Shown here piece by piece: positions 1 to 12,368 of a DNA stretch of 12,368 nucleotides. The DNA is taken from the IMG/VR virus record IMGVR_UViG_2531839473_000005; one strand, 5' to 3'. Below the pieces are notes generated by a model. That model was not told where the DNA came from. It searched no databases and saw only the letters and a program-made list of their open reading frames with translations. Within the stretch, counting starts at the first letter, position 1; every line of letters starts with the position of its first letter. This DNA comes from a virus (Duplodnaviria > Heunggongvirae > Uroviricota > Caudoviricetes). The translations under genes and the position numbers were made by a program.

Positions 1-484
1 ACACCCGGAGACAACGGCTGACTAAGCTTACTCCCCATCCCCGGGCAATAAGGGCGCGTGCGCTATCCACTTTTTTGCCCGTCCATATTCAACGGCTTCT
101 TTGAGGAGTTCATTTTCCATCGTTTTCTTGCCGAGCAGGCGCTGGAGTTCTTTAATCTGCTTCATGGCGGCAGCAAGTTCAGAGGCAGGAACAACCTGTT
201 CTCCGGCGGCGACAGCAGTAAGACTTCCTTCCTGGTATTGCTTACGCCAGAGAAATAACTGGCTGGCTGCTACACCATGTTGCCGGGCAACGAGGGAGAC
301 CGTCATCCCCGGTTCAAAGCTCTGCTGAACAATTGCGATCTTTTCCTGTGTGGTACGCCGTCTGCGTTTCTCCGGCCCTAAGACATCAATCATCTGTTCT
401 CCAATGACTAGTCTAAAAACTAGTATTAAGACTATCACTTATTTAAGTGATACTGGTTGTCTGGAGATTCAGGGGGCCAGTCTA
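1..484 (-). mobile_element. IS2 (IS3 family), partial copy cut by window start; left inverted repeat (IRL) tip at 484 faces the window interior
   Basis: Reverse complement of 455-484 is TAGACTGGCCCCCTGAATCTCCAGACAACC, which I recognise as the IS2 IRL; encodes complete InsC; the last 27 nt before the window edge should be the start of insD. Mirror image of 11931-12368. Confidence 0.9.
28..393 (-). CDS. insC: IS2 transposase OrfA (InsC), 121 aa
   Basis: ORF 28-438 contains [58 protein letters not shown]..., matching IS2 InsC as recalled; start set at the internal Met. Confidence 0.9.
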
Positions 485-2748: not shown

Positions 2749-2825
2749 GCGCCCTTAGCTCAGTTGGATAGAGCAACGACCTTCTAAGTCGTGGGCCGCA
2801 GGTTCGAATCCTGCAGGGCGCGCCA
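2749..2825 (+). tRNA. argU: tRNA-Arg (anticodon UCU); prophage attachment site
   Basis: GCGCCCTTAGCTCAGTTGGATAGAGCAACGACCTTCTAAGTCGTGGGCCGCAGGTTCGAATCCTGCAGGGCGCGCCA: cloverleaf features, anticodon loop CTTCTAA, encoded CCA; integrase gene starts 16 bp downstream. Confidence 0.9.
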
Positions 2826-2840
2826 TTACAATTCAATCAG

Positions 2841-4004
2841 TTACGCCTTCTTTATATCCTCCATAATTCCAGAGTGGGACATATTTGGGACATTATCACC
2901 AAAAATGTCGTCTATTTTCCTCGCATGCTCTGTCAAATGATTAGGCGCAAGGTGAGCATACCTACGAACCATTTCTATGGACTCCCATCCGCCCATTTCC
3001 TGAAGCACTGATAATGGGACGCCTGACTGAATCAGCCAGCTTGCCCAGGTGTGTCTGAGGTCATGGAAACGGAAATCTTCAATTCCTGCACGACGACAAG
3101 CTGATAGCCATGATGTCTTGCTGTCGATGCGCATCTTCCTGACCGCAGGCGTTGATGTTCCATCTGCTCGCTTAGCCGCCTTGGTATGTACAAACACCCA
3201 TTTGTGATGCTTGCCTATTTGATCACGCAACACTTTACAGGCGGTATCGTTCAGCGCCACACCAATGGCGCGGTTTGATTTGCTCTCTTCTGGATTCACC
3301 CAGGTAACTCGTCGCTGCATGTCGATTTGTTGCCATTCCAGATTTATGATGTTCGACTTTCTCAGACCAGTTGCCAGCGCAAACTTGACGACAGATTTCA
3401 GTGGTTCGGGGCACTCATCAATAAGGCGTTTTGCTTCCTCCTTTTCCAGCCATCTGACTCGCTTGTTTCTGACCGCTGGTATCTTGATGACAGGCGCTTT
3501 TTCCAGCCACTTCCAGTCGCGTTCTGCAGCACGGAGAATGGCCTTTATCATGGCAAGATGCTTTGCCTTTGTCTGAGTTGATACTGGCTTTGGTTCATAA
3601 ACAGGCGGTTCTTTACCTTTCCTGATGGCGGCCTGAACTTTCTGTTTCCATATTTCTTTCGTCTTTCTGTTATGCATTCTGCTTACAGCAGAGTAAATCT
3701 TTGCCTCCGAGATATCTTTAAGCCTTATACCCTCAAAATGTTCAAGCCAGAACTCAATCCGGCTTTTATCTGAATCGAGAGATTTTTTATCAGCTTTTTC
3801 CTCAAGCCATCTTAGGCAGGCCTCTTCAAAAGTGACATCAGGTAAATCCCCTAGCTTTTCTACTCGCCAGAGTTCTGCTTTTCGCTTGTCGTGCAACTCC
3901 TGAGCTTGCCGCTTGTCCTTTGTGCCAAGAGATTCCTTAATTCGTTTCTCGCCCGGGAGCGAATACGAGGCATACCATATTTCATTTCTGCGGAAGAGTG
4001 ACAT
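2841..4004 (-). CDS. intD: Prophage tyrosine integrase (DLP12 IntD-like), 387 aa
   Basis: Sits directly beside the tRNA; C-terminal HDLRHT...YAHL motifs (tyrosine recombinase R-H-R-Y signature); N-terminus [18 protein letters not shown] recalled from argU-associated integrases. Confidence 0.85.
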
Positions 4005-4231
4005 TTTCTTTCCTCTGTTATGCCATCACCCGCGCTCACCTGGACAGTATGCAGCGGAGACTGAAGCGCCGCAATGCAGGCTTGCCGTGTTGTGAGGTAA
4101 GGAGATTTTGGCTTGGTTGGATCTTTACGTGTTGCCTGTAGGCGGCCTGTTCGTATCCAGTTGGTGGCGGTTGGTCTGGATATCTTAAGAAACTGACAGG
4201 CCTCATCGAGTGTGAGGCTGTATGATTCCAT
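3860..4231 (-). CDS. xis: Excisionase-like DNA-binding protein; 3' end overlaps int in another frame
   Basis: Start set at [31 protein letters not shown] (AlpA/Xis-type HTH) with GAGGTAACC RBS; immediately upstream of int. The true 3' end is uncertain. Confidence 0.55.
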
Positions 4232-4481
4232 GGTTACCTCTGCTTTTTGAACGCATGTCACGTAACTTCTTAATGTGTTCTGCCGTTTCGATCTCTTCTG
4301 CTATCCGATCTGCATCAGCTTTATTCACAGGTTCAAAGTCATGATTAAAGCGGAACATGCTGGCGATACATGTTCTGCCTTTTCGGATGTAGTGAACTTT
4401 GTTGTGGGTAGAACGCAGGATTTTGCAGGGAGTGCCGTGGTGGTCGACGTACCAGGTGTTAGGAAAAATGATTCTGAACAT
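4203..4481 (-). CDS. Hypothetical prophage protein, 92 aa
   Basis: ORF with GAGGTG RBS 7 nt upstream of ATG; start overlaps the xis start by 29 nt; not recognised. Confidence 0.5.
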   Translation of the reverse strand: MFRIIFPNTWYVDHHGTPCKILRSTHNKVHYIRKGRTCIASMFRFNHDFEPVNKADADRIAEEIETAEHIKKLRDMRSKSRGNHGIIQPHTR

Positions 4482-4537
4482 TTTTACACCTCAGTTGGAC
4501 GATGTTGAAATTTGCTGCTTTGAGGCCATCACAGTCC

Positions 4538-4747
4538 CTATTGTTTGTTCTTAAGTTCGATCTCCTCCTGGCAACTCGCACAAGTCCGACAACCCTGAAC
4601 AGCCAGGCGTCTTCGCTCATCTATCGGATCGCCACACTCACAACAATGAGTTGCGGATACAGTCTGGTAGTTCAGACGACGCATTTTTATTGCTGTATTG
4701 CGCTGTAATTCTTCGATTTCTGATGCTGAATCAATGATGTCTGCCAT
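4538..4747 (-). CDS. TraR/DksA-family C4 zinc-finger protein, 69 aa
   Basis: C-x2-C-x17-C-x2-C pattern (HCCECGDPIDERRRLAVQGCRTCASCQ) typical of TraR/DksA zinc fingers common in prophages. Confidence 0.7.
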   Translation of the reverse strand: MADIIDSASEIEELQRNTAIKMRRLNYQTVSATHCCECGDPIDERRRLAVQGCRTCASCQEEIELKNKQ

Positions 4748-4796
4748 CTTTCATTAATCCCTGAATTGTTGGTTAATACGCTTGAGGGTAAATGCG

Positions 4797-4823
4797 AATA
4801 ATAAAAAAGGAGCCTGTAGCTCC
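4797..4823 (-). terminator. Rho-independent terminator (minus strand) between two small accessory genes
   Basis: Minus-strand GGAGC-tacag-GCTCC hairpin followed by TTTTTTATTATT, 23 nt downstream of the stop of ORF 4846-5127. Confidence 0.5.
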
Positions 4824-4845
4824 CTGATGATTTTGCTTTTCATGT

Positions 4846-5127
4846 TTACCGTTCCTTAAAGACGCCGTTCAACATGCCGATCGCCAGGCTTAAATGAGTC
4901 GGTGTGAATCCCATCAGCGTTACCGTTTCGCGGTGCTTCTTTAGTACGCTACGGCAAATGTCATCGACGTTTTTATCCGGAAAATGCTGTCTGGCTTTTT
5001 TGATTTCAGAATTAGCCTGACGGGCAATGCTGCGAAGGGCGTTTTCTTGCTGAGGTGTCATTGAACAAGCCCCATGTCGGCAAGCATAAGCACACAGAAT
5101 ATGAAGCCCGCTGCCAGAAAAATGCAT
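4846..5127 (-). CDS. Hypothetical prophage protein (93 aa ORF; likely 71 aa from internal MTPQQENALR start at 5061)
   Basis: Open frame followed by a terminator; no convincing RBS at the first ATG; not recognised. Confidence 0.45.
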   Translation of the reverse strand: MHFSGSGLHILCAYACRHGACSMTPQQENALRSIARQANSEIKKARQHFPDKNVDDICRSVLKKHRETVTLMGFTPTHLSLAIGMLNGVFKER

Positions 5128-5137
5128 TCAGTGGTTG

Positions 5138-5329
5138 TCATACCTGGTCTCTCTCATCTGCTTCTGCTTTCGCCACCATCATTTCCAGCTTTTGTGAAAG
5201 GGATGTGGCTAACGTATGAAATTCTTCGTCTGTTTCTACTGGTATTGGCACAAACCTGACTCCAATTTGAGCAAGGCTATGTGCCATCTCAATACTCGTT
5301 CTTAACTCAACAGGAGATGCTTTGTGCAT
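5138..5329 (-). CDS. Hypothetical prophage protein, 63 aa
   Basis: Good RBS (GGGAGG 5 nt before ATG); acidic C-terminus; not recognised. Confidence 0.55.
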   Translation of the reverse strand: MHKASPVELRTSIEMAHSLAQIGVRFVPIPVETDEEFHTLATSLSQKLEMMVAKAEADERDQV

Positions 5330-5490
5330 ACCGCCTCCCGTTTATTATTTATCTTCTCAGCCAGCCGCTGTGCTTTCAGTGGATTTCTGATAACAGAAAG
5401 GCCGGGAAATACCCAGCCTCGCTTTGTAACGGAGTAGACGAAAGTGATCGCGCCTACCCGGATATTATCGTGAGGATGCGTCATCGCCAT
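5302..5490 (-). CDS. Hypothetical prophage protein, 62 aa
   Basis: Start overlaps the exo stop by 10 nt (coupling-style arrangement), GGGGA upstream; overlaps the next ORF by 28 nt; not recognised. Confidence 0.4.
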
Positions 5491-6161
5491 TGCTCCCCAA
5501 ATACAAAACCAATTTCAGCCAGTGCCTCGTCCATTTTTTCGATGAACTCCGGCACCATCTCGTCAAAACTCGCCATGTACTTTTCATTCCGCTCAATCAC
5601 GACATAATGCAGGCCTTCACGCTTCATGCGCGGGTCATAGTTGGCAAAGTACCAGGCATCTTTTCGCGTCACCCACATGCTGTACTGCACCTGGGCCATG
5701 TAAGCCGATTTTATTGCCTCGAAACCACCGAGCCGGAATTTCATGAAATCCCGGGAGGTAAACGGGCATTTCAGTTCAAGGCCGTTGCCGTCACTGCATA
5801 AACCATCGGGGGAGCAGGCGGTGCGCATACTTTCGTCGCGATAGATGATCGGGGATTCAGTAATATTCACGCCGGAAGTGAATTCAAACAGGGTTCTGGC
5901 GTCGTTCTCGTACTGTTTTCCCCAGGCCAGCGCCTTAGCATTAACTTCCGGAGCCACACCGGTGCAAACCTCAGCCAGCAGGGTGTGGAAGTAGGACATT
6001 TTCATGTCAGGCCACTTCTTTCCTGAGCGGGGCTTTGCTATCACGTTGTGAACTTCTGAAGCGGTGATGACGCCGAGCCGTAATTTGTGCCATGCATCAT
6101 CCCCCTGTTCGACAGCTCTCACGTCGATCCCGGTACGCTGCAGGATAATGTCCGGTATCAT
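5481..6161 (-). CDS. exo: Lambda-type exonuclease (Red alpha), 226 aa
   Basis: [65 protein letters not shown]... is near-identical to lambda Exo as recalled; ATGA overlap with bet. Confidence 0.95.
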
Positions 6162-6943
6162 GCTGCCACCTTCTGCTCAGTGGCTTTCTGTTTCAGGAAT
6201 CCAAGAGCTTTCACTGCTTCGGCCTGTGTCAGTTCTGACGATGCGTGAATGTCGCGGCGAAATATCTGGGAACAGAGCGGCAATAAGTCGTCATCCCATG
6301 TTTTATCCAGGGCGATCAGCAGAGTGTTAATCTCCTGCATGGTTTCATCGTTAACCGGAGTGATGTCGCGTTCTGGCTGACGTTCTGCAGTGTATGCAGT
6401 ATTTTCGACAATGCGCTCGGCTTCATCCTTGTCATAGATACCAGCAAATCCGAAGGCCAGACGGGCACACTGAATCATGGCTTTATGCCGTAACATCCGT
6501 TTGGGATGCGACTGCCACGGCCCCGTGATTTCTCTGCCTTCGCGGGTTTTGAATGGTTCGCGGCGGCATTCATCCATCCATTCGGTAACGCAGATCGGAT
6601 GATTACGGTCCTTGCGGTAAATCCGGCATGTACAGGATTCATTGTCCTGCTCAAAGTCCATGCCATCAAACTGCTGGTTTTCATTGATGATGCGGGACCA
6701 GCCATCAACGCCCACCACCGGAACAATGCCGTTCTGCTTATCAGGGAAGGCGTAAATTTCTTTCGTCCACGGATTAAGGCCGTACTGGTTGGCGACGATC
6801 AGCAATGCGATGAACTGCGCATCGCTGGCATCACCTTTAAATGCCGTCTGGCGAAGAGTGGTGATCAGTTCCTGTGGGTCGACAGAATCCATGCCGACAC
6901 GTTCAGCCAGCTTCCCTGCCAGCGTTGCGAGTGCTGTACTCAT
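6158..6943 (-). CDS. bet: Red beta single-strand annealing protein, 261 aa
   Basis: [66 protein letters not shown]... is near-identical to lambda Bet as recalled. Confidence 0.95.
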
Positions 6944-6948
6944 CCGTT

Positions 6949-7245
6949 TTATACCTCTGAATCAATATCAACCTGGTGGTGAGCAATGGTTTCAACCATG
7001 TACTGGATGTGTTCTGCCATGCGCTCCTGAAACTCAACATCGTCATCAAACGCACGGGTAATGGCTTTTTTGCTGGCCCCGTGGCGTTGCAAATGATCGA
7101 TGCATAGCGATTCAAACAGGTGCTGGGGCAGGCCTTTTTCCATGTCGTCTGCCAGTTCTGCCTCTTTCTCTTCACGGGCGATCTGCTGGTAGTGACGCGC
7201 CCAGCTCTGAGCCTCAAGACGATCCTGAATGTAATAAGCGTTCAT
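6949..7245 (-). CDS. gam: Gam (RecBCD inhibitor), short 98-aa form
   Basis: [60 protein letters not shown]... matches the C-terminal 98 aa of lambda Gam; strong RBS CAGGAGGT; in-frame stop 19 codons upstream excludes the longer form. Confidence 0.9.
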
Positions 7246-7320
7246 GGCTGACCTCCTGAAAATGGCTGTGAAAATATCGCCCGCGAAATGCCAGGCTGAT
7301 TAGGAAAACAGGAAAGGGGA

Positions 7321-7611
7321 TTAGTGATTCAGGCCGTTACCGCGTCCGTCGAGAAAAACTTCCACGAGCAAATCACGGGTATAAGTGCGCTCGATGCCGC
7401 GATGCAGATAAAGCCGTCCGCGTAAATTAGCTGATGCAGTCCAGGTACCATCTTTGTGTTTGACCAGCATTCCTGGCATGACCGCACCTCGATTAACGGT
7501 CTGCGTTCCATAATGTTGATGAACCATAAAAACTCCTGCCCGTAAGCTGGGCTGCTGAACATATAGAGACTTCTGCGCGTATTCAGGCGGTGGATGGCCG
7601 CCGGTTGTCAT
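7321..7611 (-). CDS. Hypothetical protein at the kil/cIII position, first gene of the leftward early operon (96 aa; possible 68-aa form from internal Met)
   Basis: Longest ORF after the PL-like promoter; GAGG 13 nt upstream of first ATG; an internal ATG has a stronger RBS (GGGCAGGAG); a nested 77-aa ORF in another frame makes the call uncertain. Confidence 0.4.
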
Positions 7612-7804
7612 AACTAAGCCGCCTCGTTGAAGCGACTAAGGTATGAAATGTTGAGTTAATTTCAGCTGGTCACACCGACGTTCACGCGTCCGTTTCACCC
7701 CTCGCACTCCCCGAAGCCTGCTGAAATTCAAACTGCGGATCTAAGCGGTCATCGCAACGGTGAATCAGGTAGTTGCCGTATCGTTGTGTTGTTGCGATGA
7801 ACTT

Positions 7805-7856
7805 ATTTAAAACTATAGTTGTTTTATTGTCAACAACAAAAGTTGTTTTATTGGTT
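7805..7856 (-). promoter_or_regulatory. PL-like leftward early promoter with OL-like operator repeats
   Basis: Minus strand: TTGACA (7833-7828), 17-bp spacer, TTAAAT (7810-7805); -35 embedded in GTTGTTGACAATAAAACAAC with flanking AACAAC/GTTGTT inverted and direct repeats. Confidence 0.5.
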
Positions 7857-7974
7857 GTTTTAGATATAACTGGTTGTATTTAGGATGGATTTATTTTGTG
7901 ACTTGAATCGCATAGCGATAACTGAAGTGAGGTTATGGTGGTTTTTTTAACGGTGTGTGTGATGAGGGGAGGGC

Positions 7975-8001
7975 AAAAGAAAACCCGGCACGGTGACCGG
8001 G
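7975..8001 (-). terminator. Rho-independent terminator downstream of the repressor gene
   Basis: Minus strand CCCGG-N8-CCGGG hairpin followed by TTTTCTTTT, about 120 nt after the cI stop. Confidence 0.55.
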
Positions 8002-8122
8002 ATTCTTACGCCGTTAGGTAAAGATATTATTGCGGTGGCTTAATATTACTACCTAGAGCAAAGATAGGAATTAGTTCTTTACTGAATGAGCACAATGCCC
8101 AGTTGATAATTTTTAATTGGTA

Positions 8123-8812
8123 CTACCCATGCTTCCTATATGTCTGCGGCATGCTCCCAATAACCTTACCGAAGATGAACACCCGGTTCATCTCGTCTTT
8201 CTCGATCGGGTCCCACGGTGAGTAGCTTTTGTTATCAGAGATGACCAGCAGCTTATCCTTCATCATTTGCAGGCGCTTTACATGGGCTGTGTCGTCGTAC
8301 AGAAACGCATAGATACCATCACCGTCGAAAGATTTAACTGTGATATCAACGAACAGCAGATCACCTGGTTCGATCGTTCCTGACATGCTGTCACCACGCA
8401 CGTTAATGATGCGGATATTTTCCGCCTTCCTACCATCGAACATGTGACGAGCATCGTCAAACGAGTACTCAACCGAGCGTAGAACTTCTACAAACTCACG
8501 GTTGATGACTCCCGGCCCAGCACTGACTTCTATATCAAGAACGTCAATCTTGAAGTATTTGGAATGGCTGACAGTTGATTGTATTGGTTGCACTGTACTG
8601 TCTGACATATTTCCAACGCCAGAAGATAACCATTCTGCGCGCACACCCAAAGCGTTCGCGATCTCCACGATTTTAGTTGTTTGATTAGCTTTCCCTGTTT
8701 CGATTTTCTGAATAGCAGCCTGGCTAACCCCGACCAAATCCCCAAGCGCCTTTTGTGTAAGGCCTCGCGCTAATCTGGCTTCTTTAAGTCTTTCTGAGAG
8801 TGTTGTTTTCAT
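8123..8812 (-). CDS. cI: CI-type prophage repressor (XRE-family HTH plus S24 LexA-like autopeptidase), 229 aa
   Basis: N-terminal HTH (LTQKALGDLVGVSQAAIQKIETGK); C-terminal RGDSMSGTIEPGDLLFVD and downstream HVKRL (Ser/Lys dyad); start at internal Met because the longer ORF would run through the operator. Confidence 0.85.
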   Translation of the reverse strand: MKTTLSERLKEARLARGLTQKALGDLVGVSQAAIQKIETGKANQTTKIVEIANALGVRAEWLSSGVGNMSDSTVQPIQSTVSHSKYFKIDVLDIEVSAGPGVINREFVEVLRSVEYSFDDARHMFDGRKAENIRIINVRGDSMSGTIEPGDLLFVDITVKSFDGDGIYAFLYDDTAHVKRLQMMKDKLLVISDNKSYSPWDPIEKDEMNRVFIFGKVIGSMPQTYRKHG

Positions 8813-8823
8813 AGTCCAAATGT

Positions 8824-8889
8824 ACAACCAAGGTTTTATTCCATCAAACGAAAATGGTTGTTGACTAAAAACAACCATAGTTTTAATCT
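8824..8889 (+). promoter_or_regulatory. OR-like operator region with rightward PR-like promoter
   Basis: Palindrome ATGGTTGTT-gactaaa-AACAACCAT (8854-8878) containing -35 TTGACT (8861-8866); candidate -10 TTTAAT (8882-8887); second half-site pair ACAACC-aa-GGTTTT at 8824-8837; cro RBS ACGGAGG follows. Confidence 0.55.
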
Positions 8890-8916
8890 TGATTCAAATT
8901 AACCACGGAGGTTGTT

Positions 8917-9147
8917 ATGAACCCAGCTATCAAAACAGCGATCAATATCGTTGGTTCACAAAAGAAACTGGGCGCTGCTTGCGAAGTTTCACAGCAGGCC
9001 GTCTATAAGTGGCTTCACAACAAAGCAAAGGTATCCCCTGAACATGTCGGCAGCATTGTTACGGCTACTGGTGGAGTAGTGAAGGCATACCAGATTCGCC
9101 CGGATCTTCCGAAGTTGTTTCCACACACCGAAAAGAACGCAGCTTAA
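8917..9147 (+). CDS. Cro/YdaS-like HTH regulator, 76 aa
   Basis: Divergent from the repressor across the operator; HTH segment LGAACEVSQQAVYKWL; size and position typical of Cro. Confidence 0.75.
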   Translation: MNPAIKTAINIVGSQKKLGAACEVSQQAVYKWLHNKAKVSPEHVGSIVTATGGVVKAYQIRPDLPKLFPHTEKNAA

Positions 9148-9216
9148 ATTTCCATTTCACGCTCTTTAACAATAAGCAATCAACTTAACAGTCAATTCAA
9201 ACTAAAGGAGTCAATT

Positions 9217-9756
9217 ATGCAACCACTTACATACCAACAGACTAGCGGATTTAGCCCGACTGCGGTGATAAATCGTTCTCAAACAAAACAGGTGCCAGGC
9301 CACGAAAAAATCCGTGATGCCGTCCGCGCCTGGTCGGCTGTAGATAATCAGGATGTCGTTGCCACACTCATTGTGAATGAGTATCGGGAGCAGGGCGGCG
9401 GCACCATCGATTTCCCTGATGATGTCAGCCGTGCACGCCAGAAGCTGTTCCGCTTCCTCGATAACAAATTCGATTCTGAAAAATACCGAAATAACGTGCG
9501 TGAACTGACCCCGGCAATTCTGGCGGTACTACCGCTGGAATATCGCGGTTACCTGGTTGAGCAGGATAGCTTCATGGCTAGGTTGGCTGAAATGGAAAAG
9601 GAACTCAGTGAGGCAAAACAGGCTGTCATTCTCAACGCACCACGCCACCAGAAACTGAAGGAAATTAGTGAAGGTATTGTGTCGATGTTTCGTGTGGACC
9701 CAGATCTGGCTGGTCCATTGATGGCGATGGTTACTACCATGCTGGGGGCGATATGA
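9217..9756 (+). CDS. YdaT-like protein occupying the cII position, 179 aa
   Basis: AAAGGAG RBS; motifs IVNEYREQGGG and LTPAILAVLPLEYRGYL resemble Rac YdaT as recalled (EYLRQGGG, LIPAILAILPRELR). Confidence 0.6.
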   Translation: MQPLTYQQTSGFSPTAVINRSQTKQVPGHEKIRDAVRAWSAVDNQDVVATLIVNEYREQGGGTIDFPDDVSRARQKLFRFLDNKFDSEKYRNNVRELTPAILAVLPLEYRGYLVEQDSFMARLAEMEKELSEAKQAVILNAPRHQKLKEISEGIVSMFRVDPDLAGPLMAMVTTMLGAI

Positions 9757-9842
9757 CAGGTTCAGAAATGGCGAAAGCCGGTCTGCTGGAACAGAACCGA
9801 CTTTCAGGTGCAAATCGTAACACACTCATTGCGGGAGGAATT

Positions 9843-10772
9843 ATGGCAAACACTGCTGAGATATTCAATTTTCCAGTGCCGGATGCGGCACAAAAGGAGC
9901 CGCGCGTGGCAGATCTCGATGATGGTTATACGCGCATTGCAAATGAGTTGCTGGAAGCTGTGATGCTGGCCGGATTAACACAGCACCAGCTTCTGGTCTT
10001 TCTGGCTGTCATGCGCAAAACATATGGCTTTAATAAAAAACTGGATTGGGTTAGCAACGAGCAACTTTCCGAATTAACCGGGATATTGCCGCACAAGTGT
10101 TCTGCTGCAAAAAGTGTTCTGGTAAAGCGTGGGATTTTTATTCAGAGCGGGCGGAATACCGGCATTAATAATGTGGTCAGTGAATGGTCAACATTACCCG
10201 AATCAGGTAAGAAAAATAAAGTTTACCTGAAAGAGGTAAATTTACCTGAATCAGGTAAAAAAAGTTTACCCAAATCAGGTAAAGGCGTTTACCCGAATCA
10301 GGTAAACACAAAAGACAAACTAACAAAAGACAATATAAAACCTTTTTCGTCCGAGAATTCTGGCGAATCCTCTGACCAACCAGAAAACGATCTTCCTGTG
10401 GTGAAACCGGATGCTGCAATTCAGAGCGGCAGCAAGTGGGGGACAGCAGAAGACCTGACCGCCGCAGAGTGGATGTTTGACATGGTGAAGACCATCGCGC
10501 CATCAGCCAGAAAACCGAATTTTGCAGGGTGGGCTAACGATATCCGCCTGATGCGTGAACGTGACGGACGTAACCACCGCGACATGTGCGTGCTGTTCCG
10601 CTGGGCATGCCAGGACAACTTCTGGTCCGGTAACGTGCTAAGTCCGGCCAAACTCCGCGACAAGTGGACCCAACTCGAAATCAACCGTAACAAGCAACAG
10701 GCAGGCGTGACAGCTAGCAAACCAAAACTCGACCTGACAAACACAGACTGGATTTACGGGGTGGATCTATGA
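9843..10772 (+). CDS. O: Lambda O-like replication initiator, 309 aa from this start
   Basis: MANTAEIFNF...VADLDDGYTRIANELLEA...KTYGFNK resembles the lambda O N-terminus as recalled; RBS GGGAGGA; iterons inside the gene; an alternative upstream start at 9753 exists. Confidence 0.85.
   Translation: MANTAEIFNFPVPDAAQKEPRVADLDDGYTRIANELLEAVMLAGLTQHQLLVFLAVMRKTYGFNKKLDWVSNEQLSELTGILPHKCSAAKSVLVKRGIFIQSGRNTGINNVVSEWSTLPESGKKNKVYLKEVNLPESGKKSLPKSGKGVYPNQVNTKDKLTKDNIKPFSSENSGESSDQPENDLPVVKPDAAIQSGSKWGTAEDLTAAEWMFDMVKTIAPSARKPNFAGWANDIRLMRERDGRNHRDMCVLFRWACQDNFWSGNVLSPAKLRDKWTQLEINRNKQQAGVTASKPKLDLTNTDWIYGVDL
10191..10345. repeat. Origin of replication: 4-5 iterons plus A/T-rich region inside the O gene
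   Basis: Repeats of TTACCCGAATCAGGTAAA-like units (TTACC...GGTAA palindromic) at about 10191-10309, followed by aaacacaaaagacaaactaacaaaagacaatataaaa; same architecture as ori-lambda. Confidence 0.7.
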
Positions 10773-11470
10773 AAAACATCGCCGCACAGATGATTAACTT
10801 TGACCGTGAGCAGATGCGTCGGATCGCCAACAACATGCCGGAACAGTACGACGAAAAGCCGCAGGTACAGCAGGTAGCGCAGATAATCAACGGTGTATTC
10901 AGCCAGTTACTGGCAACTTTCCCGGCGAGCCTGGCTAATCGTGACCAGAACGAACTGAACGAAATCCGCCGCCAGTGGGTTCTGGCTTTCCGGGAAAACG
11001 GGATCACCACGATGGAACAGGTGAGCGCCGGAATGCGTGTTGCCCGTCGGCAGAATAGACCATTTCTGCCATCACCCGGGCAGTTTGTTGCATGGTGCCG
11101 GGAAGAAGCATCCGTTACCGCCGGGCTGCCAAACGTCAGCGAGCTGGTTGATATGGTTTACGAGTATTGCCGGAAGCGTGGTCTGTATCCGGATGCAGAG
11201 TCTTATCCGTGGAAATCAAACGCGCACTACTGGCTGGTTACCAACCTGTATCAGAACATGCGGGCCAATGCGTTGACTGACGCGGAATTACGGCGCAAGG
11301 CTGCCGATGAACTGTCCTGTATGACCGCGCGAATTAACCGTGGTGAGGCGATACCTGAACCAGTAAAACAACTTCCTGTCATGGGCGGTAGACCTCTAAA
11401 TCGTGCACAGGCTCTGGCGAAGATCGCAGAAATCAAAGCTAAGTTCGGACTGAAAGGAGCAAGTGTATGA
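10769..11470 (+). CDS. P: Lambda P-like replication protein (DnaB helicase loader), 233 aa
   Basis: MKNIAAQMINFDREQMRRIANNMPEQYDEKPQVQQVAQIINGVFSQLLATFPASLANRDQNE... is near-identical to lambda P as recalled; ATGA overlap with the O stop. Confidence 0.9.
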   Translation: MKNIAAQMINFDREQMRRIANNMPEQYDEKPQVQQVAQIINGVFSQLLATFPASLANRDQNELNEIRRQWVLAFRENGITTMEQVSAGMRVARRQNRPFLPSPGQFVAWCREEASVTAGLPNVSELVDMVYEYCRKRGLYPDAESYPWKSNAHYWLVTNLYQNMRANALTDAELRRKAADELSCMTARINRGEAIPEPVKQLPVMGGRPLNRAQALAKIAEIKAKFGLKGASV

Positions 11471-11769
11471 CGGGCAAAGAGGCAATTATTCATTACCTGG
11501 GGACGCATAAGAGCTTCTGTGCACAGGACGTTGCCGCGGTAACAGGCGCAACCGTAACCAGCATAAATCAGGCTGCGGCTAAAATGGCGCGGGCAGGAAT
11601 CCTGGTCGTTGATGGTAAGGTCTGGCGAACGGTGTATTACCGGTTCGCTACCAGAGAAGAACGGGAAGGAAAGGTGAGCACGAATCTGATTTTTAAGGAG
11701 TGTCGCCAGAGTGCCGCGATGAAACGGGTACTGAGGGTATATAAAAGAACATCAATGGGAACACAATGA
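11467..11769 (+). CDS. ren: Ren-like protein, 100 aa
   Basis: MTGKEAIIHYLGTHKSFCAQDVAAVTGATVTSINQAAAKMARAGILVVDGKVWRTVYYRFATREEREGK resembles lambda Ren as recalled; ATGA overlap with the P stop. Confidence 0.8.
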   Translation: MTGKEAIIHYLGTHKSFCAQDVAAVTGATVTSINQAAAKMARAGILVVDGKVWRTVYYRFATREEREGKVSTNLIFKECRQSAAMKRVLRVYKRTSMGTQ

Positions 11770-11836: not shown

Positions 11837-11930
11837 ATGAACCCTTATATTTATCTTGGTGGTGCAATACTTGCAGAGGTCATTGGTACAACCTTAATGA
11901 AGTTTTCAGAAGGTTTTACACGGTTATGGC
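11837..11930 (+). pseudogene. emrE: SMR-family multidrug efflux gene emrE, truncated after codon 31 by IS2
   Basis: MNPYIYLGGAILAEVIGTTLMKFSEGFTRLW matches the EmrE N-terminus as recalled; RBS AGGAAAG; the IS2 IRL begins at 11931. Confidence 0.8.
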
Positions 11931-12368
11931 TAGACTGGCCCCCTGAATCTCCAGACAACCAGTATCACTTAAATAAGTGATAGTCTTAATACTAGTTTTT
12001 AGACTAGTCATTGGAGAACAGATGATTGATGTCTTAGGGCCGGAGAAACGCAGACGGCGTACCACACAGGAAAAGATCGCAATTGTTCAGCAGAGCTTTG
12101 AACCGGGGATGACGGTCTCCCTCGTTGCCCGGCAACATGGTGTAGCAGCCAGCCAGTTATTTCTCTGGCGTAAGCAATACCAGGAAGGAAGTCTTACTGC
12201 TGTCGCCGCCGGAGAACAGGTTGTTCCTGCCTCTGAACTTGCTGCCGCCATGAAGCAGATTAAAGAACTCCAGCGCCTGCTCGGCAAGAAAACGATGGAA
12301 AATGAACTCCTCAAAGAAGCCGTTGAATATGGACGGGCAAAAAAGTGGATAGCGCACGCGCCCTTATT
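11931..12368 (+). mobile_element. IS2 (IS3 family), partial copy cut by window end; IRL tip at 11931 faces the window interior
   Basis: Begins TAGACTGGCCCCCTGAATCTCCAGACAACC; reverse complement of the left copy (1-484) over the shared length, with identical ORF translations. Confidence 0.9.
12022..12368 (+). CDS. insC: IS2 transposase OrfA (InsC), 3'-incomplete at window edge
   Basis: ATG at 12022 followed by [18 protein letters not shown]...; runs to the end of the window. Confidence 0.85.

What the first reader, a model, noticed from the sequence alone, without database searches (positions are those of the whole stretch)
2749..11769. Complete-looking early region of an argU-integrated lambdoid prophage with mosaic ancestry
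All early genes are full length with sensible starts. exo, bet, gam, O, P and ren are near-identical to lambda as recalled, whereas the integrase, the repressor/operator module and the YdaS/YdaT pair are not lambda-like. The repressor keeps the S24 autopeptidase motifs (GDSM and a downstream Lys), so the prophage is probably SOS-inducible. In K-12 the prophage at this site (DLP12) is heavily degraded, so this would be a more intact relative.
Basis: partly seen in the sequence, partly recalled or inferred. Interest (0 to 1): 0.45.

Follow-up and report, generated by a model that had tools for sequence, protein, structure and literature searches.

The report
Intact DLP12-type lambdoid prophage early region
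This is the integrase-to-ren half of a common, already sequenced E. coli lambda-like prophage sitting in the argU tRNA gene, the undamaged version of the K-12 remnant DLP12; it is ordinary, apart from having no N antiterminator and carrying a conserved, undescribed RNA hairpin ahead of its kil gene.

Summary
Window 2749-11769 runs from argU through int, xis, the Red genes, kil, an S24 repressor, cro, a CII-like YdaT, O and P to ren, with every gene full length.

It is 99.93% identical to the isolated phage PhiR34_1. At least 80% of it is present in 882 of 5,426 complete E. coli genomes. K-12's DLP12 is this same element minus window 4100-5454 and 5761-11158, with an added IS3.

Two lambda-derived blocks make up 47% of the region. 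O is a chimera: only its C-terminal half is lambda-like, and its origin has five non-lambda iterons.

The window is a contig of GCA_000190955.1, cut at scaffold gaps inside two IS2 copies. Both IS2 copies are simple insertions with 5-bp target duplications. Past the emrE copy the prophage continues, 99.96% identical to PhiR34_1, through Q and the lysis genes. Head and tail genes and attR were out of reach.

Verdict: already known, low interest.

Seen in passing:
- There is no N or cIII gene.
- A hairpin plus short ORF (MTTGGHPPP) lies upstream of kil. It is widespread in lambdoid phages, its stem covaries, and it has no Rfam match.

The parts
1..484 (-). Partial IS2 copy (insC end) inserted in sfmH. 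The window starts at a scaffold gap inside this copy.
   Evidence: InsC ORF. Hits annotated as IS2-family transposase. The source scaffold shows the N-gap and the 5-bp target duplication CCAGG.
2749..2825 (+). argU, tRNA-Arg(UCU)
   Evidence: ARAGORN; Rfam tRNA, 72 bits.
2781..2827 (.). attL: the 47-bp att core overlapping the 3' part of argU
   Evidence: The same 47 bp is duplicated at both ends of DLP12 in K-12. PMC6379469 also reports a 47-bp repeat.
2841..4004 (-). intD tyrosine integrase, 387 aa
   Evidence: PF00589, E = 1e-46. 99% identical to K-12 IntD and 22% to lambda Int.
3860..4231 (-). xis excisionase, 123 aa, overlapping int by 145 nt
   Evidence: phrog_2907 'excisionase', E = 4e-46, residues 1-116 aligned to profile positions 2-117 of 117. 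HTH_17 and TIGR01764 hits. PGAP marks it as a partial pseudogene in STEC434.
4203..4481 (-). DUF4222 protein, 92 aa
   Evidence: PF13973.
4538..4747 (-). TraR/DksA-type zinc-finger protein, 69 aa
   Evidence: PF01258.
4552..7327 (.). Lambda-derived block 1 (lambda 30418-33193), 97.0% nt identity. Covers the orf61 region, orf63, orf60a, exo, bet and gam.
   Evidence: blastn against lambda.
4807..4825 (-). Terminator-like hairpin with a T-run in the leftward operon, upstream of traR, xis and int
   Evidence: Terminator scan.
4846..5061 (-). orf61-like protein, 71 aa
   Evidence: phrog_303. Annotated in STEC434 and PhiR34_1.
5138..5329 (-). DUF1382 protein (lambda orf63 homologue)
   Evidence: PF07131.
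5302..5490 (-). DUF1317 protein (lambda orf60a homologue), intact here
   Evidence: PF07026, full-length match. PhiR34_1 carries a 2-bp insertion at this position.
5481..6161 (-). exo, Red alpha exonuclease, 226 aa
   Evidence: 98% identical to lambda Exo.
6158..6943 (-). bet, Red beta annealase, 261 aa
   Evidence: 99% identical to lambda Bet.
6949..7245 (-). gam, RecBCD inhibitor, 98 aa
   Evidence: 97% identical to lambda Gam.
7321..7527 (-). kilR-type FtsZ/cell-division inhibitor, 68 aa. An in-frame upstream ATG at 7611 would give a 96-aa form.
   Evidence: phrog_294, E = 1e-37. PF27398. 36% identical to Rac KilR.
7586..7645 (-). Conserved leader element. It comprises the CAUACC motif, hairpin HP1 (7637-7617), an ATG at 7611-7609 opening the [12 protein letters not shown], and hairpin HP2 (7602-7586).
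   Evidence: Shared with phi80 and HK225. More than 120 IMG/VR contigs carry it. HP1 covaries. No Rfam match.
7646..7797 (-). Leader of about 150 nt transcribed from pL. It holds no N or cIII gene, only a 31-aa Arg-rich ORF (7636-7731).
   Evidence: ORF list. The leader is conserved across phages with two different operator types. Fold z-score is -0.29.
7788..7870 (.). OL/pL. GTTGTT/AACAAC half-sites; GTTGTT-N8-AACAAC at 7818-7837; -35 TTGACA at 7833-7828 on the - strand.
   Evidence: Motif search. The promoter block is nearly identical to pR.
7984..8001 (-). Intrinsic terminator downstream of the repressor gene
   Evidence: Terminator scan. Conserved in relatives.
8123..8812 (-). CI-like repressor, 229 aa, HTH_3 plus peptidase S24. 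Ala98-Gly99, Ser142, Lys179.
   Evidence: Pfam; phrog_4; alignment to lambda CI; residue positions.
8802..8916 (.). OR/pRM/pR. Perfect 25-bp palindrome at 8854-8878; pR reads TTGACT-17-TAATCT.
8917..9147 (+). cro analogue of the YdaS family, 76 aa
   Evidence: PF15943 and a P22_Cro hit. 30% identical to Rac YdaS.
9217..9756 (+). CII analogue of the YdaT family, 179 aa
   Evidence: PF06254. phrog_163 'CII-like'. 35% identical to Rac YdaT. Function as described in PMC9986795.
9753..10772 (+). O replication initiator, 339 aa (or 309 aa from Met31). Non-lambda N-terminal half joined to a lambda C-terminal half.
   Evidence: PF04492. 68% identical to lambda O overall, with the C-terminus almost identical.
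10194..10310 (.). ori: five iterons of the form TTACCYGAATCAGGTAA, followed by an A+T-rich stretch
   Evidence: the repeat finder. Lambda homology begins at 10306, directly after the last iteron.
10306..11742 (.). Lambda-derived block 2 (lambda 39119-40555), 94.8% nt identity
   Evidence: blastn against lambda.
10769..11470 (+). P helicase loader, 233 aa
   Evidence: 98% identical to lambda P.
11467..11769 (+). ren, 100 aa
   Evidence: 90% identical to lambda Ren; phrog_142.
11837..11930 (+). emrE 5' fragment (31 codons), cut by IS2
   Evidence: Sequence. Intact emrE is present in PhiR34_1, STEC434 and K-12.
11931..12368 (+). Partial IS2 copy. The window ends at a scaffold gap inside this copy.
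   Evidence: The target duplication ATGGC is visible in the scaffold.

Best explanation
Window 2749-11769 is the attL-to-ren arm of a DLP12-type lambdoid prophage integrated in argU of E. coli assembly GCA_000190955.1. It is essentially the same virus as the isolated phage PhiR34_1.

**Shown**
- IntD integrated the phage at a 47-bp core that rebuilds the 3' end of argU.
- The early region is intact and is a mosaic. Two lambda-derived blocks (the orf61-region-to-gam block, and the A+T-rich part of ori with the C-terminal half of O, P and ren) are set among non-lambda modules: int-xis, kilR, the immunity region, and the N-terminal half of O with its iterons.
- K-12's DLP12 is this element after two deletions and an IS3 insertion.
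- The IS2 in emrE is a simple insertion, and the prophage continues beyond it.

**Inferred from family knowledge**
- The S24 repressor binds GTTGTT/AACAAC operators at OL and OR.
- After DNA damage, RecA-stimulated self-cleavage at Ala98-Gly99 (Ser142/Lys179 dyad) releases pL and pR.
- pL then expresses kil, gam, bet, exo, the small accessory genes, xis and int.
- pR expresses cro, the CII-like YdaT, O, P and ren.
- O binds its five iterons inside its own gene, and P loads DnaB.

Early transcription runs without an N protein. Whether this particular copy, with IS2 lying between ren and the nin/Q region, still yields phage was not tested.
For: - Identity to PhiR34_1 is 99.93% over 9,109 bp.
- At least 80% of the region is present in 882 of 5,426 complete E. 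coli genomes.
- The window is 100% identical to scaffold GL872046.1, and both window ends fall exactly at that scaffold's N-gaps.
- Downstream of IS2, 8.8 kb is 99.96% identical to PhiR34_1 and reaches Rz.
- Target duplications are ATGGC and CCAGG.
- The DLP12 deletion map comes; the att core; IntD identity.
- Comparisons with lambda.
- Family assignments.
- Operators and promoters. Iterons. S24 residues.
- YdaT as a functional equivalent of CII: PMC9986795.
Against: - Head and tail genes and attR of this strain could not be read. The scaffold ends about 14 kb beyond the fetched stretch, which is short of a full 46-kb prophage.
- IS2 sits in the rightward operon between ren and Q and could be polar on late-gene activation.
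- There is no N gene, yet a terminator-like hairpin (4825-4807) lies between pL and xis/int. How these genes are reached is unexplained, although the near-identical PhiR34_1 is deposited as a phage propagated on MG1655.
- Induction, operator binding and repressor cleavage are all inferred and were not measured.
Confidence: 0.85

Rival explanations
1. The prophage is grounded despite its intact early genes. The IS2 in emrE would block rightward transcription before Q, or the late region of this strain would be damaged elsewhere. The element would then be a DLP12-like cryptic prophage at an earlier stage of decay.
For: - IS2 interrupts the rightward operon at 11931.
- No N antiterminator is present to suppress polarity.
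- The late region beyond Rz was not seen.
- The same IS2 junction occurs in at least 4 contigs, which suggests it is stably inherited.
Against: - Everything visible on either side of IS2 is 99.9% identical to a phage isolate.
- emrE is cargo, not a phage function.
- With IS2 the genome would be about 46.0 kb, which is within lambda packaging limits (established knowledge).
- Q may have its own promoter.
Confidence: 0.3
2. The two inverted IS2 copies at the window ends mark an IS2-mediated inversion, a composite transposon or a mis-scaffolded assembly. On this reading the early region is not contiguous with the rest of the prophage.
For: The IS2 copies at 1-484 and 11931-12368 are in inverted orientation. 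Both contig ends lie in repeats.
Against: - Each IS2 is flanked by its own 5-bp direct target duplication.
- Each is also flanked by the two halves of the same gene: sfmH 5' and 3' parts with CCAGG, emrE 5' and 3' parts with ATGGC.
- An inversion between the copies would have swapped these flanks.
Confidence: 0.03

Closest known systems
Escherichia phage PhiR34_1 (GenBank PV340559, 44.6 kb; host given as K-12 MG1655)
   Same: 99.93% nt identity from the att core to emrE, and 99.96% over the next 8.8 kb. Gene order is identical.
   Different: - The window's copy carries IS2 in emrE.
- The window has an intact DUF1317 gene where PhiR34_1 has a 2-bp insertion.
- The PhiR34_1 annotation omits xis and calls the kil region in the wrong frame.
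Cryptic prophage DLP12 of E. coli K-12
   Same: Same argU site and 47-bp core. IntD is 99% identical. The same emrE, ybcK through quuD and lysis modules follow. Flanking remnants are 97-100% identical.
   Different: DLP12 lacks window 4100-5454 and 5761-11158. The missing genes are the 5' part of xis, the accessory genes, most of exo, bet, gam, kil, the immunity region, O and the 5' part of P. DLP12 also carries IS3 in ren, and IS5 in nmpC outside the window.
Bacteriophage lambda
   Same: The overall early-region architecture is shared. exo, bet, gam and P are 97-99% identical in protein sequence, ren is 90%, and the C-terminal half of O is almost identical.
   Different: - Different int/xis and attachment site, kil, repressor/operators, cro and cII analogue.
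- Different O N-terminal domain, with five iterons rather than four.
- No N, cIII, ea10, ral, sieB or rexAB.
Rac prophage immunity region (kilR, ydaS, ydaT)
   Same: Same protein families in the same positions: KilR 36%, YdaS 30% and YdaT 35% identity. Neither region has an N gene.
   Different: - The repressor here is an S24 autopeptidase fusion, unlike RacR.
- Replication uses lambda-type O and P rather than YdaU and YdaV.
- The leader shows no similarity to the Rac KilS sRNA region.
Phages 4A7, Perceval, 1W and 3W (Bievrevirus) and other PhiR phages
   Same: Same kil leader, YdaS/YdaT, O, P, ren and emrE modules at 86-97% identity.
   Different: Some have different operators. They carry extra genes between pL and the repressor gene, and a different integrase.
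HK022 put RNA antitermination
   Same: Both are lambdoid phages without an N protein. Here too, two predicted stem-loops start right after the pL transcription start.
   Different: No sequence similarity to putL or putR, no second copy downstream of pR, and no excess folding energy.

Membership tests
DLP12-type (argU-integrating) lambdoid prophage | Integration in argU with a 47-bp core that rebuilds the tRNA 3' end | tested here: met
   The core at 2781-2827 is identical to the repeat flanking DLP12. attR of this strain was not seen.
DLP12-type (argU-integrating) lambdoid prophage | IntD-type integrase adjacent to argU | tested here: met
   383 of 387 residues identical to K-12 IntD.
DLP12-type (argU-integrating) lambdoid prophage | Colinear with the DLP12 remnants and followed by emrE, ybcK through quuD, nmpC and the lysis module | tested here: met
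   and for the source scaffold.
DLP12-type (argU-integrating) lambdoid prophage | Complete morphogenetic region and attR, as required for an intact member | not testable with these tools
   Both are present in STEC434 and PhiR34_1. The rest of the source scaffold could not be fetched.
Lambdoid early-region architecture | Divergent pL and pR around a repressor gene, with cro and a cII analogue to the right and recombination genes, xis and int to the left | tested here: met
Lambdoid early-region architecture | O/P replication module with iterons inside O | tested here: met
Lambdoid early-region architecture | N-type antiterminator protein with nut sites downstream of pL | tested here: not met
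   No ORF longer than 31 aa lies between pL and kil, and no family hit was found. Relatives such as phi80 and HK225 have a gene plus terminator at this position.
LexA/CI-type self-cleaving S24 repressor | N-terminal HTH plus C-terminal peptidase S24 domain | tested here: met
   PF01381 and PF00717.
LexA/CI-type self-cleaving S24 repressor | Ala-Gly cleavage site and Ser/Lys catalytic dyad | tested here: met
   Ala98-Gly99, Ser142 and Lys179 align with lambda CI Ala111-Gly112, Ser149 and Lys192.
LexA/CI-type self-cleaving S24 repressor | RecA-stimulated cleavage and SOS induction | not testable with these tools
   This needs an experiment.
HK022 put-type cis-acting antiterminator RNA | Sequence or structure similarity to putL/putR | tested here: not met
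   No blastn match to the HK022 pL-nun or cro-cII regions.
HK022 put-type cis-acting antiterminator RNA | Related copies downstream of both pL and pR | tested here: not met
   No copy of the pL leader is found in the pR operon.
HK022 put-type cis-acting antiterminator RNA | Two stable stem-loops at the start of the pL transcript | tested here: inconclusive
   Two stem-loops are predicted, but the energy is no better than that of shuffled sequences (z = -0.29).
IS2 simple transposition | 5-bp direct target duplication flanking a complete element | tested here: met
   ATGGC in emrE and CCAGG in sfmH. The IS2 interiors lie in scaffold gaps.

The most novel reading that the evidence does not exclude
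The leftward early operon of this phage group runs without an N protein and carries an undescribed cis-regulatory RNA in its leader.

The RNA would consist of a covarying 9-bp hairpin, followed by a nearly invariant AUG-ACA-ACC-GGC-GGC-CAU-CCA-CCG-CC segment that encodes the short [12 protein letters not shown].

In hundreds of lambdoid phages this element sits just after the terminator of the N-like gene and just before kil or other toxic early genes.

It could gate translation or transcription into kil, for example through an occluded ribosome-binding site and a polyproline stall. Alternatively, together with the conserved 150-nt pL leader, it could replace N-dependent antitermination.
Probability: 0.3. 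Interest if true: 0.45.

Novelty: already known. Interest (0 to 1): 0.12.

Why it matters
As submitted, the finding is routine annotation of a known and very common E. coli prophage type. Its main use is as a clean reference for what DLP12 lost: exact deletion endpoints, an intact xis, and the kil and immunity modules.

The more useful leads are side observations.
- A functional lambdoid phage lineage has no N gene in its early-left operon.
- A widespread hairpin plus mini-ORF element with a covarying stem lies ahead of kil-type genes and is absent from Rfam.

If that element regulates a toxic cell-division inhibitor, or regulates early transcription, it would be a new and easily tested piece of lambdoid gene control.

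Tried and rejected
- **Same IS2 junctions in complete E. coli genomes.** None of the 5,426 genomes has them. The source was instead found by exact look-up of the emrE'-IS2 fusion peptide and of the IS2-sfmH fusion ORF. A first guess at the start codon failed.
- **HK022 put-like RNA.** No similarity was found.
- **Homology of the kil leader to the Rac KilS sRNA region.** None.
- **Rfam.** Only the tRNA scored. The antisense 'Plastid-ycf2' hit and the rliD hit are below their gathering thresholds and are spurious.
- **CP-933P YdaT operator (TTGATTN6AATCAA).** No more matches than expected by chance.
- **pL leader as an unusually stable fold.** Not supported, z = -0.29.
- **Second copy of the leader downstream of pR.** None.
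- **31-aa Arg-rich ORF (7636-7731) as a mini-N.** No family hit. A TAG stop in some phages and CAG in others shows the reading frame is not kept, so this was left as a curiosity.
- **phi80 'N' and HK225 gp38.** Neither resembles that peptide.
- **Compensatory changes in hairpin HP2.** None were found; only 14 synonymous variants turned up.
- **Literature on the PhiR phages and on the leader sequence.** Nothing was found.
- **Late-region lookup.** The tools only allow look-ups of proteins encoded in the window, so the late region of the source strain could not be fetched.

Full report
**What is in the window**

The 12,368-bp window contains one tRNA gene, argU (tRNA-Arg UCU), at 2749-2825.

To its left lie sfmH', sfmF and fimZ, and a partial IS2 at 1-484.

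To its right lies a continuous set of phage early genes ending with ren at 11769. Then come 31 codons of emrE and a second, inverted partial IS2 from 11931.

**Gene assignments (profile searches)**

| Gene | Coordinates, strand | Note |
|---|---|---|
| int | 2841-4004, - | |
| xis | 3860-4231, - | full-length match to phrog_2907 |
| DUF4222 | 4203-4481, - | |
| TraR-like | 4538-4747, - | |
| orf61-like | 4846-5061, - | |
| DUF1382 | 5138-5329, - | |
| DUF1317 | 5302-5490, - | |
| exo | 5481-6161, - | |
| bet | 6158-6943, - | |
| gam | 6949-7245, - | |
| kilR-type inhibitor | 7321-7527, - | |
| HTH plus S24 repressor | 8123-8812, - | |
| cro | 8917-9147, + | YdaS family |
| YdaT | 9217-9756, + | CII-like |
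| O | 9753-10772, + | |
| P | 10769-11470, + | |
| ren | 11467-11769, + | |

No gene is truncated or frameshifted.

**Where the window comes from**

- An exact look-up of the emrE'-IS2 fusion peptide and of the IS2-sfmH fusion ORF led to scaffold GL872046.1 of assembly GCA_000190955.1.
- The window is 100% identical to that scaffold.
- It begins and ends exactly at runs of N inside the two IS2 copies. It is therefore a contig bounded by repeats.
- Each IS2 is a simple insertion. The two halves of sfmH flank the left copy with a CCAGG duplication, and the two halves of emrE flank the right copy with ATGGC. This excludes an inversion or a composite element.

**The refutation test**

- Beyond the right IS2 the scaffold carries the rest of emrE, then ybcK, ybcL, ybcM, ybcN, ninE, ybcO, rusA, ylcG, quuD, a porin gene, holin, lysozyme and Rz.
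- This stretch is 99.96% identical to phage PhiR34_1 over 8,813 bp.
- The prophage therefore does not end at IS2.
Head and tail genes and attR of this strain remain unseen.

**What it is**

- The region from the att core to emrE is 99.93% identical (4 substitutions, one 2-bp indel) to Escherichia phage PhiR34_1. That is a 44.6-kb complete phage genome whose host is given as K-12 MG1655.
- It is 100% identical to prophages in several complete genomes, for example STEC434, which carries the full late region.
- At least 80% of the region occurs in 882 of 5,426 complete E. coli genomes.

Aligned to K-12, DLP12 matches as follows:

| Window segment | Match in K-12 DLP12 |
|---|---|
| up to 4099 | aligned |
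| 4100-5454 | deleted |
| 5455-5760 | 100% identical |
| 5761-11158 | deleted |
| 11159-11557 | 96.7% identical |
| within ren | IS3 inserted |
| 11556 onward | aligned |

- IntD is 99% identical to the K-12 protein.
- The 47-bp core at 2781-2827 is the repeat found at both ends of DLP12 (PMC6379469).

**Mosaic structure**

- Lambda homology is confined to two blocks. Window 4552-7327 matches lambda 30418-33193 at 97.0%. Window 10306-11742 matches lambda 39119-40555 at 94.8%.
- Protein identities to lambda are exo 98%, bet 99%, gam 97%, P 98% and ren 90%.
- O is 68% identical overall. Its C-terminal ~140 residues are almost identical to lambda, and its N-terminal origin-binding half is divergent.
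- The origin has five iterons of the form TTACCYGAATCAGGTAA at 10194-10310. Lambda homology starts directly after the last iteron.
- int, repressor, cro and YdaT show no meaningful similarity to lambda Int, CI, Cro or CII.
- KilR, YdaS and YdaT belong to the families first named in the Rac prophage, at 30-36% identity.
- YdaT proteins are functional equivalents of CII (PMC9986795).

**Control region**

- The repressor gene is followed by an intrinsic terminator at 8001-7984 on the - strand.
- pL and pR share a nearly identical block, GTTGTTGAC(A/T)...AACAAC...ATAGTTTTAA. GTTGTT/AACAAC half-sites cluster at 7788-7860 and 8802-8911.
- At OR the operator is a perfect 25-bp palindrome (8854-8878) that overlaps the -35 element of pR.
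- The 251-aa reading of the repressor would start inside this palindrome. The 229-aa form starting at 8812 is the sensible one, and it is the form annotated in RefSeq.
- Ala98-Gly99, Ser142 and Lys179 align with the cleavage site and catalytic dyad of lambda CI.
- SOS induction is therefore plausible but untested.

**What is missing**

- Between pL and kil there are about 270 nt with no ORF longer than 31 aa. There is no N, cIII, ral or sieB.
- A terminator-like hairpin inherited with the lambda block lies at 4825-4807, upstream of traR, xis and int. How leftward transcripts reach xis and int is not explained.
- The leader has no similarity to HK022 putL or putR. It has no partner downstream of pR. 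Its folding energy is no better than that of shuffled sequences.

**Side observation: a conserved element upstream of kil**

A 60-nt block at 7645-7586 (- strand) is conserved at 85-95% in phi80 and HK225, while the sequences flanking it diverge.

The element has these parts:
- the motif CAUACC;
- hairpin HP1 (AGUCGCUUC-AAC-GAGGCGGCU in the window);
- a UUAGUU linker;
- an AUG that opens the [12 protein letters not shown];
- a second possible hairpin, HP2 (GGCGG-CCAUCCA-CCGCC), formed by the Gly and Pro codons.

Evidence on HP1:
- All 29 distinct HP1 variants fold into an 8-11-bp hairpin.
- On a gap-free alignment of 22 variants, 97.5% of cells pair and 4 of 9 pairs show changes on both sides.
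- There are 23 double-change cells, against 6.7 ± 1.7 in shuffles (0 of 500 shuffles reached this).
- Slid registers pair at only 35-61%.

Evidence on HP2:
- It is almost invariant. Only 14 synonymous variants were found, against more than 120 canonical copies.
- Its structure is therefore neither supported nor excluded.

Context of the element:
- In most phages it follows an intrinsic terminator at the end of an N-like gene. In the window's group it follows a 150-nt leader transcribed directly from pL.
- After the proline codons the sequences diverge. They form mini-ORFs of 16-51 aa or in-frame fusions to kil and other genes.
- Rfam has no match, and a literal search of the literature for the sequence found nothing.
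- In Rac, kilR expression is controlled by NusG-dependent termination (PMC5793797). A regulatory leader ahead of kil would therefore be in character.
- This remains a lead, not a demonstrated function.

**Verdict**

The finding is real and is correctly interpreted in the main. However, it describes an already sequenced, very common prophage type. Novelty: already known. Interest: low.

Noticed in passing
window 7586-7645 (- strand); also loci L012, L013, L020-L153: A conserved element lies upstream of kil and is widespread in lambdoid phages. It consists of a 9-bp hairpin with strong covariation, followed by a nearly invariant start of a mini-[12 protein letters not shown]. It usually sits just after the terminator of an N-like gene. 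Rfam has no match and no paper was found that prints the sequence.
   Followed up: partly
window 7528-7800 (- strand): There is no N or cIII gene between pL and kil. The 150-nt leader starting at the pL transcription start is about 95% conserved between phages with two different operator sets. It shows no put-like similarity and no excess folding energy.
   Followed up: partly
window 7636-7731 (- strand): A 31-aa arginine-rich ORF (RGVKRTRERR, reminiscent of the RNA-binding motif of N proteins) ends at a TAG here and in PhiR34_1 and PhiR70_1. In Perceval, 4A7, PhiR26_1 and PhiR30_1 the codon is CAG, which gives one 125-139-aa ORF continuous with kil.
   Followed up: partly
window 3860-4231 (- strand): xis is a full-length 123-aa excisionase that overlaps int by 145 nt. 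It is left out of the PhiR34_1, 2G7b and Turner annotations, and PGAP flags it as a partial pseudogene in STEC434.
   Followed up: yes
window 7321-7562 (- strand); PhiR34_1 4508-4741: The PhiR34_1 record annotates the other reading frame (window 7329-7562, no family hit) instead of the KilR frame (window 7321-7527). Across relatives, Kil is annotated at 68, 96, 125 or 139 aa.
   Followed up: partly
window 1-484 and 11931-12368: The window is a whole contig whose two ends fall at scaffold gaps inside two inverted IS2 copies. Both copies are simple insertions with 5-bp target duplications: CCAGG in the fimbrial adhesin gene sfmH, and ATGGC in the efflux gene emrE. Both genes are inactivated.
   Followed up: yes
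window 10194-10345: The origin has five non-lambda iterons. The lambda/non-lambda recombination joint lies exactly at the end of the last iteron, which splits O into an origin-specific half and a lambda P-interacting half.
   Followed up: yes
window about 5392; PhiR34_1 about 2570: PhiR34_1 has two extra A residues relative to the window inside the DUF1317 (orf60a) gene, which would frameshift it there. This is either a sequencing error or a real mutation in the phage isolate.
   Followed up: no
window 4807-4825 (- strand): A strong terminator-like hairpin with a T-run lies inside the lambda-derived block, between orf61-like and traR. Leftward transcripts must pass it to reach xis and int.
   Followed up: no
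L006 about 11640 (source scaffold, outside the window): A 1-bp indel relative to PhiR34_1 lies inside the small gene ylcJ, just downstream of emrE. No ylcJ gene is called in the source scaffold.
   Followed up: no
window 2749-2823 (- strand): Rfam reports 'Plastid-ycf2 5'UTR' at 34.7 bits, below its gathering score of 65.7, on the antisense strand of argU. This is a false positive caused by tRNA-like structure.
   Followed up: no
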